This document shows, in pieces, positions 34,542 to 61,780 of a DNA stretch of 64,000 nucleotides; within the stretch, counting starts at the first letter, position 1, and each line of letters begins with the position of its first letter. The notes below the pieces were generated by a model that had not been told where the DNA came from, did no database searches, and saw nothing but the letters and a program-made list of their open reading frames with translations. The position numbers and the translations under genes are program-made. The DNA is from Octopus vulgaris (taxonomy: Eukaryota): NCBI GenBank assembly GCA_951406725.2, contig OX597814.1, positions 145,390,001 through 145,454,000 on the forward strand, read 5' to 3'.

Positions 34542-34582
34542 GTCTTCAACGTTTCGAGCCTACACTCTACAACAGAAAGGAA
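34542..34582 (-). ncRNA. Minimal hammerhead-like motif, variant core
   Basis: CTTT-CTGTTGT-A-GAGT gtag GCTC-GAAA-CG-TT-GAAG; homologues at 58235-58274 and 61688-61726. Confidence 0.55.
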
Positions 34583-35511
34583 CACAGAAAGAAACAAGGA
34601 GAGAAAATAAAGAATGTATTGTAGCTAGCGATCTATCATGGCGAAGGCCGGACAGAAAGGTCACACAGGAGAGCTAAGGAGAAGGGGAGATAACAAAGTG
34701 GTGGTGATCCCAAAATGAGGGTGCGCGTGCGTAGGTATACGAGAGTTGTATGTGTGTGTGGAAGAGGGCTAGTGATCTTGACGTGTGTGTATGCGTATGT
34801 GTATGTGTGAAGATATGGGTCTGGGAAGTGGTCAATGCTGATGTGTGCTGATGTGGGGTAGAAAGGGCTCCTTAGCTGTAGTGAAGGCAATCTATCTAGG
34901 GAGATAACCTTACAATAAATCACTGGGTCCGTAGCTTAGAAATACTGGGTTGACGTCCAGCGGGAACAGCTTTGTTTCATGGAGGAGGAAAGATCTTCTT
35001 TAGTACTTGGTTGTACAATGCTTTCCAATGCGTGTAGTAGTGGCGCGCGCACACATTATTAGCCATTTGAAAAGAATATGAAAGTCTCGACCACGGTCGA
35101 ACAATGATGATGATGATGATGTGCATGGTCGTGGCTTGTGATGTGATGTGTGGTATGGTGGTGTAAGGTGTAGTGGGGTGTGGGTTAGGCTGAAGGTGGT
35201 AGTAGAGGTGGGGGTGGGTAGCGGTGGGTGAGTTTAAAGTTAAGGTTAGGTGGGTAAGGGTGTAAGGGGTGGGTTGGCATGGGATGGGGAAGGATAGGGA
35301 AGGTGGGGCTGGAATGTGTACGGGTGGGGTGGGCTTGCAAAGGAGGGGTGACGAGGAAAGGAGGAAGAAGAAGTTGGTAGAAGTGAAGAGAAAAAAGGTG
35401 GGTAGGAGTGAAGAGAAGAAAGGAGAGTAGGAGTGAAGGGAAGTGAAGGGTAGAAGTAAAAGTCGGCGTAAGAGGAGAGGTGGGTTGGAAGATGTAGGCG
35501 TGAGGAAGAGG

Positions 35512-35616
35512 CAAGGGAAGAGAGTTGAGCCCATGTGGGGCAAAAGAACGCAGAGAGAAGATTAATACCTGTTTACGGCGCAAGCGGGAGTCCGGATGGC
35601 CCCTATGCAAGGACAT
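35512..35616 (-). pseudogene. Penelope GIY-YIG endonuclease C-terminal remnant
   Basis: MSLHRGHPDSRLRRKQVLIFSLRSFAPHGLNSLP within ORF 35185-35652. Confidence 0.75.
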
Positions 35617-35621
35617 ATAGT

Positions 35622-35757
35622 CTTTCAGTTTCCGTCTACGAAACCCATTCACAAGGCTATGGTTAGCCTGAAGCTATAGTAGAAGACAACTGTCTAAGAC
35701 AGAGCCTGGAAACATGTGGTTGGGAAGAAAGATTCTTATTACACAGTCACGCCTGCA
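35622..35757 (-). mobile_element. SINE family A 5' part
   Basis: TTTCAGTTTCCGTCTAC..TATAGTAGAAGAC..ATGTGGTTGGGAAG..CACGCCTGC. Confidence 0.8.
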
Positions 35758-59340: not shown

Positions 59341-59552
59341 CGAGGGGTTGCTGAAAATTTTCTGGCTTTAGGGGCATAACGAAAGACCTGGCTCGAAGCC
59401 CAACCTTCCCAGTTCTTTTACAGGGCTTAGAAAAACTGAAGGACCCCTGCAATAAGTGTGTGAATCTGAGAGGGAAATATATTGAATAAAATCATATTTA
59501 ACTACTGTATTTTCTTTTACTCAAAGTCAAGAACTTTTCGGCAATAACCTCT
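59341..59552 (+). mobile_element. Mariner-derived MITE (internal deletion)
   Basis: TA-CGAGGGGTTGCTGAAAA TIR; encodes transposase end QGLEKLKDPCNKCVNLRGKYIE*. Confidence 0.85.
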
Positions 59553-59803
59553 TACATATATACATACATACGTACATACATACACTCATACATACACACG
59601 TATATATATATATATATATATATATATATATATATATATATATGAGACGGATATTAATCTATCTATCTATCTATCTATCTATCTATATATATATATATAT
59701 ATATATGCGTGCATATATGTATAATACATACACACAAGCACACACACATACACACACATGTATATAAATGAATATGTATGAACATACATACATATATACA
59801 TTT

Positions 59804-60045
59804 GTGGAGGCACATGGCTTAGTGGTTAGTGTGTCACCCTTTCAATCGTAAGATTGTGGTTTCGATTCCTAAATCGGGCCATGCATTGCGTTGATGAGCA
59901 AATCACTTCGTTTCACATAGCTACACTCTAATTAATTGGCAAAAATAAGTAATCCTGTAAGGGACTGGCATCTTGTTCAGTGGGATATATAAACGCTACA
60001 CAATCCGGGAGACTGCGTTTATGAGCCTATGCGTTAGGAAGGACT
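59804..60045 (+). mobile_element. tRNA-derived SINE, family C-like
   Basis: TGGCTTAGTGGTTAG box A, GGTTTCGATTCC box B, GAGCAAATCACTT..TTTCAC core. Confidence 0.75.
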
Positions 60046-61564
60046 TTTGGCCCTTTTTGACACATGCATCATACATACATACACATCTGTACATACATAC
60101 ATATATACATACATACGTACATACATACATACATACATACATACATACATACATACATACATACATACATACATACATACATATATACTTACATACATAA
60201 ATACATACATACATACATGCAAACAAAAATATCCAGTTGTTGATGTTGAAATTCCAATGAAGGAGCCTTGGATCTACGTTTTGGAACCGGTTCGTTCTCT
60301 ATTGGCAACTAATCTAGAAATAAACTGAATAACGACACATAGATAAATATATACATACAGAGAAGCAGACAGACAGACATACAGACAAGCACACAAATAC
60401 ACACATACATGTGGTTGTATGTATACAGGCCACCCACCATGGGAGTAAGTGGCCTATATCAAATTTGAGCAAAATATCTGGATAGTGTGTGACCTGAGGA
60501 AAGTGCAATATTTTTGTGTGTGACGAGCCAATTAGAAACACTAATATTTTTACGGCTGTCCTTTCCTCAGTTTCGGTGATCCTCTGTCTCGTTTTCTATC
60601 GAATGCTTCCTCTCCTCTATTCTTTCTATTACCTCCTCTCTTCATTTCTTTCCTTCTCTTCCCCTTAGCTCTTCTTTTCTAAATCATCACTTCTCTTACT
60701 CTTCCCTCTTTATCTCTGTTCCACTTACCTTAAGTTTATACTTATTGCCTCTCTTCCATCTCCTTCACATGCGCGTATCATTCTTCCAGTGTTCTGCTTA
60801 GTTATAACCAGATATAATTGACGAATGTAGCAACACTTTTCTCGGCCGTTCCCTTTTTCTCCACCGATCAATGGGTCCAGTAACCATATCAGTAACGAAC
60901 TAGAATAAAGAAAAGTATGTAAAGACCATTATTTATGCCTTGTCTTATATATGTATATATATATATATATATATATATATATATATATATATATATATAT
61001 ATTGATTGATTGGTTAGTTCTATTTTTGTATAATAGAGAGTAGCAATTGAAGAAGCGAGAAATGTTTTGTGTCCCCAAAGCAGTATATTACACAGTGAAA
61101 CCTAAATTTATTTAGTATTTCATTTAATATTCTATATCTGTTTCCACCAATATGCCTTCTAACAACTGCACTTTATCGATGTAGGCCATCAAATAGGGAA
61201 TATTCATTACATTATTAAGTATCCTATTAAAATTATTGTTTCCATTCTAAATTAAGCATTAAAGTAAGAGTGAGTGTGTAAGACAGAGAAAAAACAAAGG
61301 GAAATACAAATAATTTGAAATTTTGAAAGATTGCCTTGACCTTGGCAGCTAGGGAAGCATGAATTGAATAATACCAACATTGTTTCTATTGCATTTATAT
61401 ATATATATAAATATATATATATATATATATATATATATATATATAAATAACAGGAACCGAGAGGTGGAACGAAACGACGAATCGGAACGAACCTGATGCG
61501 GGGCGCTGTCAGACAATAAGGTGATAAATAAATATATATATATATATATATATATATATATATA

Positions 61565-61780
61565 AAGAAACTATAACTTATTTAATATATGATTGAAATG
61601 TACAAAAAGAAAAATAAAAGACAGAGGCAGATGAAGGAACAACAGCTAAAGTGTATCAGTTTCACGCCCAGGAAAAATGGAAAAACATTTAACATCTCGA
61701 ACCTACTCTCTTCGACAGATAGGAATGAGGAAAGAAAACGGAAATAGAAAAGTCGGAGAGAGAAAAAAAAACCGGTCTGG
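61565..61780 (-). mobile_element. Older 3' fragment of the 34.5-kb Penelope family with HHR relic (61688-61726)
   Basis: Colinear with 34470-34610; minus strand CTAT-CTGTCGA-AGAGAGTAGGTTC-GAGA-TG-TT-AAAT; abuts (TA)n. Confidence 0.6.

What the first reader, a model, noticed from the sequence alone, without database searches (positions are those of the whole stretch)
34542..61726. Three-copy HHR family with a non-canonical CUGUYGA core (A6 to U)
Seen: 34542-34582 (-, CTGTTGT), 58235-58274 (+, CTGTTGA) and 61688-61726 (-, CTGTCGA) all have U where the canonical core has A6, while their other defects are private to each copy. Inferred consensus: CTTT-CTGTTGA-A-GAGC gtag GCTC-GAAA-CG-T(T/A)-AAAG, with an extremely short stem III (palindrome ACGU) that could form only in a dimer. 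Inference: a natural core variant that standard CUGANGA searches would miss.
Basis: partly seen in the sequence, partly recalled or inferred. Interest (0 to 1): 0.7.

Follow-up and report, generated by a model that had tools for sequence, protein, structure and literature searches.

The report
Hammerhead core swap in active retrotransposon
These three repeats are decayed tail ends of a Penelope-like jumping gene whose hammerhead-shaped RNA carries U where hammerheads almost always have A, in thousands of copies including recent intact elements; it likely still cuts itself slowly as a pair, but cutting is untested.

Summary
The three motifs are decayed 3' tails (pLTRs) of a Neptune-like Penelope retroelement; copy 1 still carries the end of the GIY-YIG gene. 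Genome-wide, 15,954 of 16,568 exact core matches have U6 (96.3%), 184 have A6. Copies found without using the core agree (91 of 102). U6 is the majority in all six subfamilies sampled, from one about 18% decayed to full-length elements with open ORFs and identical pLTR pairs. Between subfamilies the flanks change but the ribozyme does not, except at N7 and H17, the two free hammerhead positions (0 of 34 versus 13 of 58 columns). A sister lineage (68% protein identity) keeps canonical A6 and also has intact elements. The dimer-type architecture is known; I found no natural U6 family in the papers searched, but the key survey (Lünse 2017) was not available. Cleavage is untested, known position-6 mutants are slow, and nothing shows U itself is selected. 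Earlier scan notes mention altered-core families in this genome. Verdict: a real new core variant of a known ribozyme, with a ready natural control.

The parts
34437..35615 (-). Copy 1: 5'-truncated Neptune-like PLE, about 1.18 kb (end of ORF, 3' UTR, pLTR tail, then TA repeat)
   Evidence: Aligns along its length to a full-length element, L266; sequence
35521..35615 (-). Remnant of the C-terminal end of the GIY-YIG endonuclease frame (…RLRRKQVLIFSLRSFAPHGLN)
   Evidence: same segment ends the long RT-EN frames in L143, L264
34544..34579 (-). Hammerhead-shaped motif, copy 1 (C3 34575, U6 34572, predicted cut after 34548); decayed, A9>U
58208..58358 (+). Copy 2: pLTR tail only, closest to the older TCTCTTATTCC subfamily (about 12% from two members)
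58236..58271 (+). Hammerhead-shaped motif, copy 2 (C3 58240, U6 58243, predicted cut after 58267); decayed, G12>A
61590..61780 (-). Copy 3: pLTR tail only, most decayed; N7=C and 3' flank resemble the oldest layer sampled (by eye)
61687..61722 (-). Hammerhead-shaped motif, copy 3 (C3 61718, U6 61715, predicted cut after 61691); decayed, A14>G and C15.2>U

Best explanation
The three motifs are decayed pLTR tails of a Neptune-like Penelope retroelement whose lineage carries a minimal type I hammerhead fold with U in place of A6, and the intact form likely still cuts its RNA, slowly, as a dimer and probably with help from the element's protein. Shown: U6 is the lineage state, sits in both pLTRs of recent full-length elements about 4.5 kb apart, and the rest of the motif stayed fixed while flanks, N7 and H17 changed. 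Inferred: a transcript through tandem copies brings two motifs together, the ACGU palindromes pair to make stem III, and G8/G12 catalyse a cut after H17; loss of A6 lowers the rate but is tolerated because only slow or late cleavage is needed. The three window copies themselves are predicted dead.
For: U6 in 15,954 of 16,568 exact matches, A6 184, C/G 430; 91 U, 5 C, 3 A, 3 gaps in 102 copies found by the 3' flank alone; 7 of 8 in 400 kb of blind stretches. A6 copies are spread over all subfamilies (30 loci seen). Of 20 stretches fetched around RT hits, 11 of 12 motif pairs flanking an element differ by 0-1.3% over about 235 nt, 8 of them by 0; all carry U6; ORFs stay open for 1,000-1,200 codons with RT above the Pfam cut-off. 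Four core-blind subfamily majorities: 0 of 34 ribozyme columns vary (N7, H17 set aside) versus 13 of 58 in an indel-poor flank block, Fisher p=0.0016; 2 of 36 and p=0.04 with N7 and H17 counted. With core-picked copies added, five subfamilies give 0 of 29 versus 46 of 118. An older layer (mean 18% from its own majority) has U6 in 27 of 30, N7=C and H17=C. H17 takes C, A, U and not G across six layers, as the NUH rule needs (weak alone). Architecture matches the min-HHR consensus of PLEs: extra base after A9, G10.1-C11.1, palindromic 15.2-16.2 (PMC4209133). A natural A6C hammerhead cleaves (PMC3088659, PMC7151607). A PLE hammerhead that cuts only with its protein is on record (PMC11167929).
Against: No cleavage was measured. 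Position-6 changes are harmful: A6C gives under 0.1 per min (PMC3088659) and over 10,000-fold slower with Mg2+ than Mn2+ in one construct (PMC7151607); CUGA-turn mutants had low activity and no rescue except the C3-G8 swap (PMC9901934). In the Anolis element, dead-ribozyme mutants inserted normally in vitro and no RNA-seq reads ended at the cut (PMC11167929). Stem II shows no covariation inside the U6 lineage (44 double-change matches; the best one is private), so the fold rests on invariance plus comparison with other lineages. Loop II and blocks of the 3' flank are also invariant, which a protein-binding role would explain without catalysis. U6 itself is not shown to be selected: about 78% of flank columns also stayed unchanged, and in one older subfamily position 6 is mixed (22 of 100 non-U versus 4, 4, 8, 4 at four nearby U sites). 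U6 adds a competing rod fold in the monomer (-10.8 versus -8.4 kcal/mol for a natural A6 copy).
Confidence: 0.6

Rival explanations
1. The motif no longer cuts; it is kept because the element's protein or the reverse-transcription step needs this RNA structure or sequence, and loss of A6 marks a switch from catalyst to scaffold.
For: Cleavage was dispensable for insertion in vitro in the Anolis PLE (PMC11167929). Position-6 mutants are strongly impaired (PMC9901934, PMC7151607). Loop II and flank blocks are as invariant as the core. No stem II covariation inside the lineage. An earlier scan note (e1-8672774, not tested here) reports a family that kept spreading after catalytic changes.
Against: The only ribozyme columns that differ between subfamilies are N7 and H17, the two that catalysis leaves free, and H17 avoids G. 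Unpaired catalytic bases G8, G12, A13, A14 and three CpG sites that decay fast in copies are kept in every majority.
Confidence: 0.27
2. A neutral relic: U6 killed the ribozyme once in a master element and the dead motif simply hitchhikes.
For: A single master lineage can fix any change; subfamilies are not independent; only 4-6 subfamily majorities were compared.
Against: 0 of 34 versus 13 of 58 variable columns and persistence from an 18%-decayed layer to 0%-diverged elements show constraint after U6 arose.
Confidence: 0.08
3. U6 is an adaptive switch: it folds the lone motif into an inactive rod that hides the palindrome, or shifts metal preference as A6C does, so that cutting happens only when protein or a partner opens it.
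For: With U6, bases U4-N7 can pair with AACG in the monomer. A6C changes Mg2+/Mn2+ preference (PMC7151607). U6 tracks the 4-nt loop II lineage: of 100 listed matches, 3-nt loops had 30 A6 and 1 U6, 4-nt loops 56 U, 9 C, 3 A, 1 G.
Against: The A6 sister also has a competing monomer fold; the rod depends on N7 and is not the best fold in the G7 subfamily; loop and U6 are linked by descent, one event; position 6 was mixed in an older subfamily.
Confidence: 0.05

Closest known systems
Minimal type I hammerheads (min-HHR) of metazoan Penelope-like elements (Cervera and de la Peña 2014, PMC4209133; parts 1-2 of 4 read, supplement file 2 searched)
   Same: Sits in both pLTRs; 4-bp stems I and II; extra base between A9 and G10.1; G10.1-C11.1; palindromic C15.2-G16.2 with no loop III; U-rich 5' side; most copies are solo truncated tails.
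   Different: Their consensus is CUGANGAH; none of the three CUGU strings in their supplementary alignment is a core. The core variant they report is U3-A8. Here position 6 is U in a whole lineage.
Bcep176 phage hammerhead with A6C (Perreault 2011, PMC3088659, section 8 and passages; Naghdi 2020, PMC7151607, main text)
   Same: Natural change at core position 6; slow but active, Mn2+-preferring.
   Different: C not U; one phage sequence, not a lineage of thousands of copies; monomeric context.
Anolis Poseidon (PAc) hammerhead (Frangieh 2024, PMC11167929, main text)
   Same: PLE pLTR hammerhead; gives the model of protein-assisted cleavage.
   Different: Penelope/Poseidon clade, no position-6 change reported in the text read, ORF start lies inside the ribozyme; cleavage was not needed for insertion in vitro.
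Small PLE-associated hammerhead variants that cleave as dimers (Lünse, Weinberg, Breaker, RNA Biol 14:1499; not held; seen only as a reference and as summarised in PMC6765202)
   Same: Short stem III, dimer cleavage, PLE association.
   Different: Unknown whether their alignments include U6 members; this limits the novelty claim.
Canonical A6 sister lineage in the same genome (L394, L395)
   Same: Same stem II GAGC/GCUC and ACGU palindrome, motif in both pLTRs, 1,008-codon open frame 68% identical over RT-EN.
   Different: A6, 3-nt loop II, G-C instead of C-G at stem I pair 4, different flanks; 7,866 matches to the general A6 pattern, most of the first 100 of this lineage.

Membership tests
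Hammerhead ribozyme, PLE min-HHR type | C3 U4 G5, G8 A9, G12 A13 A14 core bases | tested here: met
   Invariant in all subfamily majorities
Hammerhead ribozyme, PLE min-HHR type | A6 | tested here: not met
   U in 15,954 of 16,568; A in 184. Filed therefore as a variant that likely works like a hammerhead, not as a canonical member
Hammerhead ribozyme, PLE min-HHR type | Stem II with G10.1-C11.1 and an extra base after A9 | tested here: met
   A + GAGC/GCUC, forms in 6 of 6 monomer folds
Hammerhead ribozyme, PLE min-HHR type | A15.1-U16.1, palindromic 15.2-16.2, H17 | tested here: met
   ACGU then C, A or U
Hammerhead ribozyme, PLE min-HHR type | Stem I closing the core | tested here: met
   CUUU/AAAG in all majorities; GUUU/AAAC or AAAU in most A6 sister copies
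Hammerhead ribozyme, PLE min-HHR type | Covariation of stems inside the family | tested here: inconclusive
   Stems are invariant inside the U6 lineage; pair changes appear only between lineages
Hammerhead ribozyme, PLE min-HHR type | Match to an Rfam hammerhead model | tested here: not met
   0 matches at E<=10 on an intact copy, L266:6820-7000; no A6 min-HHR control was run, so this may reflect the missing stem III
Hammerhead ribozyme, PLE min-HHR type | Self-cleavage after H17 | not testable with these tools
   Needs an assay; only contigs were available for laying
EN+ Penelope-like element, Neptune/Nematis type | One ORF with RT and C-terminal GIY-YIG | tested here: met
   RVT_1 31.7 bits (cut-off 29.6); GIY-YIG E=0.0076, below its cut-off; motifs visible
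EN+ Penelope-like element, Neptune/Nematis type | CX2-5CxxC linker, CCHH in the endonuclease, DKG motif | tested here: met
   CSRPRCRTC, CISCSLC…H…H and ADKGG read by eye; definitions from passages of PMC8557442
EN+ Penelope-like element, Neptune/Nematis type | Tandem or partial-tandem layout with pLTRs; insertion in (TA)n | tested here: met
   Motifs 4.3-4.6 kb apart, three in tandem in L274; tails end in TA repeats
EN+ Penelope-like element, Neptune/Nematis type | RT phylogeny placing it in Neptune rather than Nematis | not tested
   No reference proteins were compared; 'Neptune-like' rests on motifs

The most novel reading that the evidence does not exclude
An actively spreading retrotransposon lineage has replaced the near-invariant A6 of the hammerhead core with U and kept cutting, because its own protein, the dimer or the GUAG loop makes up for the lost contact. 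The hammerhead core consensus for protein-assisted PLE ribozymes would then be wider than CUGANGA, and CUGANGA surveys undercount them by tens of thousands per genome.
Probability: 0.4. Interest if true: 0.7.

Novelty: new variant of a known kind. Interest (0 to 1): 0.52.

Why it matters
What PLE hammerheads do is an open question: they are widely kept, yet slow in vitro and dispensable for insertion in the one reconstituted system. This genome holds two sister lineages with intact recent elements, 68% identical proteins and nearly the same stems, one with A6 and one with U6. Either assay result is informative: if U6 cuts, a core position thought near-essential is relaxed in a natural, successful family; if it does not, a retrotransposon has kept a hammerhead fold frozen for a long time for a non-catalytic job. 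It also shows that CUGANGA descriptors miss at least 15,954 copies here (roughly 56,000 by the blind sample, 8 in 400 kb; wide error).

Tried and rejected
A generic core-plus-stem scan of the window found none of the three copies because it lacked the extra base after A9 and the copies are decayed. Rfam on the window: the 150 rows shown of 386 were microRNA and snoRNA models on microsatellites. The repeat finder was swamped by microsatellites. Hidden A6 master inside the lineage: A6 copies scatter over subfamilies; an A6 cluster of 4 at one threshold came from loci picked for A6; a flank tree of 50 rows did not resolve C6 or A6 as clades. Stem II covariation within the U6 lineage: rejected, L207 is private; families with GGAC/GUCC stems mostly keep A6 (30 A, 5 U, 2 G, 1 C of 38). 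L137 seemed to link this ORF to an A6 motif but is two separate insertions. Expression: no RNA holder listed; contigs cannot show ends; one search listed no letter differences at all and is uninformative. Dimer: cofold minimum-energy structures were extended duplexes, not the hammerhead dimer; no support and no evidence against. Copies starting at the cut site: the 6 core-less hits of 102 were listed; too few, none taken as evidence. RNA editing cannot turn U into A (own knowledge). De-duplication by coordinates failed and was redone by sequence. Literature: searches found no natural U6 family; the Lünse paper and one structural review were not held, and supplement file 1 of PMC4209133 could not be searched.

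Full report
Observation. The three motifs are present as described, with C3 at 34575 (-), 58240 (+) and 61718 (-) and U at position 6. They share 150-180 nt of homology and no fourth copy is found in the window. Each has its own further core or stem damage (A9>U; G12>A; A14>G with C15.2>U), so the window copies are predicted inactive. The window is G000:C1:145390001-145454000 of a 2.8-Gb assembly; size and microsatellite load suggest an octopus-like animal (my inference, not tested).

Is U6 the family state? The pattern CTGNNGAAGAGCGTAGGCTCGAAACG has 16,568 exact matches, control 0. Of these 184 have A and 430 C or G, leaving 15,954 with U (96.3%). The 30 A6 loci examined fall into all subfamilies, as back-mutations would. 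To avoid picking on the core, a profile of the 3' flank alone was run on 40 blind 10-kb stretches: 8 copies, 7 with U6, about 56,000 genome-wide with wide error. Over all loci not fetched on the core, 102 de-duplicated copies gave 91 U, 5 C, 3 A and 3 gaps. Contigs of four public runs (coded organisms A, D, E, B; three studies; one may be the source of the assembly) showed alternative letters at N7 and H17 but none at position 6 among the 40 rows shown at 3% or more; 14 rows were hidden, so this is weak support.

What the repeat is. Copy 1 runs 5' to about 35615 and ends in the last codons of a GIY-YIG frame. Of 30 loci found with that 5' part, 25 had a motif 570-1,090 nt downstream, one of them an unrelated A6 insertion. 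An RT query gave 150 scored hits, many with the same score and long open frames. Twenty were fetched at 10 kb, chosen for long frames or top rank. Frames reach 1,000-1,200 codons, with RVT_1 above cut-off and GIY-YIG below it, a CX4CxxC linker, CCHH and DKG motifs: the Neptune/Nematis layout (PMC8557442, passages). The motif lies in both pLTRs, 4.3-4.6 kb apart, three times in tandem in L274. Eleven of 12 such pairs differ by 0-1.3% over about 235 nt, the twelfth by 12%. All carry U6. So U6 is in the most recent full-length elements.

Is the motif still under constraint? Copies were clustered on flanks only. Among four core-blind subfamily majorities, 0 of 34 ribozyme columns differ when N7 and H17 are set aside, against 13 of 58 in an indel-poor 3' block (p=0.0016; 2 of 36, p=0.04, with them; 93 of 102 copies were long enough and 68 fell in these clusters). 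Adding core-picked copies gives five subfamilies and 0 of 29 versus 46 of 118. An older layer, all 30 genome matches of its 5' pattern, averages 18% from its own majority and has U6 in 27, N7=C, H17=C and the same stem II; part of the core was in that pattern. Across six layers N7 takes all four bases and H17 takes C, A and U but not G. These are the two free positions of a hammerhead (PMC3088659, PMC8495972, passages). Subfamilies are related, so the tests are indicative, not exact.

Results against. Stem II does not covary inside the lineage. Loop II and blocks of the flank are also frozen. U6 itself shows no sign of selection, and in the TCTCTTATTCC layer position 6 is mixed beyond decay: 15 C, 6 A, 1 G in the first 100 of 662, against 4, 4, 8 and 4 changes at four nearby U sites; a tree did not resolve these as clades. 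This fits 'A6 no longer needed' better than 'U6 needed'. Position-6 and CUGA-turn mutants are slow (PMC3088659 section 8; PMC7151607 main text; PMC9901934 passages). In the Anolis PLE the hammerhead cuts only with protein, dead mutants insert normally, and no reads end at the cut (PMC11167929, main text). U6 also allows a rod fold of the monomer.

A natural control. The general A6 pattern has 7,866 matches (control 24), most of the first 100 from a sister lineage with the same stem II and a 3-nt loop. It has full-length elements too: L394 has the motif in both pLTRs 5.9 kb apart and a 1,008-codon frame 68% identical over RT-EN. U6 follows the 4-nt loop lineage. Since A6 is the general hammerhead state and is kept in the sister and in other small families, U6 is the derived state (inference).

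Mechanism. Shown: anatomy, position, frequency, constraint. Inferred: transcripts through tandem units bring two motifs together; ACGU palindromes form stem III in a dimer, as proposed for min-HHRs (PMC4209133; PMC6765202, section 11); cleavage after H17 is slow and probably protein-assisted; A6 became dispensable. I put this at 0.6, a non-catalytic scaffold at 0.27, a neutral relic at 0.08 and an adaptive U6 switch at 0.05.

Comparison and novelty. The architecture and PLE setting are known. Natural core variants known from the papers read include U3-A8 in PLEs and A6C in a phage. Searches and the supplementary alignment of PMC4209133 showed no U6 family. The Lünse survey was not available and could contain it; a bioRxiv paper on animal retrozymes was read only in part 1 of 5 and PMC6155905 only in passages. 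Earlier scan notes mention large families with altered cores in this genome; sequence and word look-ups for this family returned nothing. Verdict: new variant of a known kind, interest 0.52.

Noticed in passing
L195, L202, L204 around 1500: A small separate repeat family (5 of 44 hits) with a CUGUUGA-A-stem-GAAAC motif and, about 45 nt upstream, a GAAAC…CUGAUGA arrangement; flanks unrelated to the Neptune-like tail. Possibly a second origin of U6 or a rearranged hammerhead.
   Followed up: no
L394:3561-6584 and L395:3904-6687 (- strand): Full-length canonical-A6 sister elements with a long (CA)-rich 3' UTR of about 2.6 kb; L394 has an open 1,008-codon frame.
   Followed up: partly
G000 matches (TCTCTTATTCC layer): Position 6 is C in about 15% and A in about 6% of this older subfamily, above decay at nearby U sites; minor C6 or A6 masters, or a mutation hotspot, are both possible.
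   Followed up: partly
G000:C18:76866134, 76882493, 76898762: Three A6 matches spaced about 16.3 kb apart, suggesting a tandem segmental repeat.
   Followed up: no
L152 near 788 and L264 near 995, - strand: Old decayed copies that pair a U6-lineage-like tail with a UUU-type loop II, one with U6 and one with A6; possible intermediates between the two lineages.
   Followed up: no
L039/L040, L073, L273, L282: Pairs of tails on opposite strands 150-450 nt apart, the inverted partial copies typical of PLE insertions.
   Followed up: no
L396:234-1154 (+), just before the window: A 307-codon open frame that looks like the zinc-finger and restriction-like endonuclease end of a non-LTR retrotransposon (label recalled, not searched).
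   Followed up: no
window 8364-9546: Several 96-153-codon frames of non-microsatellite composition, possibly a decayed mobile-element gene.
   Followed up: no
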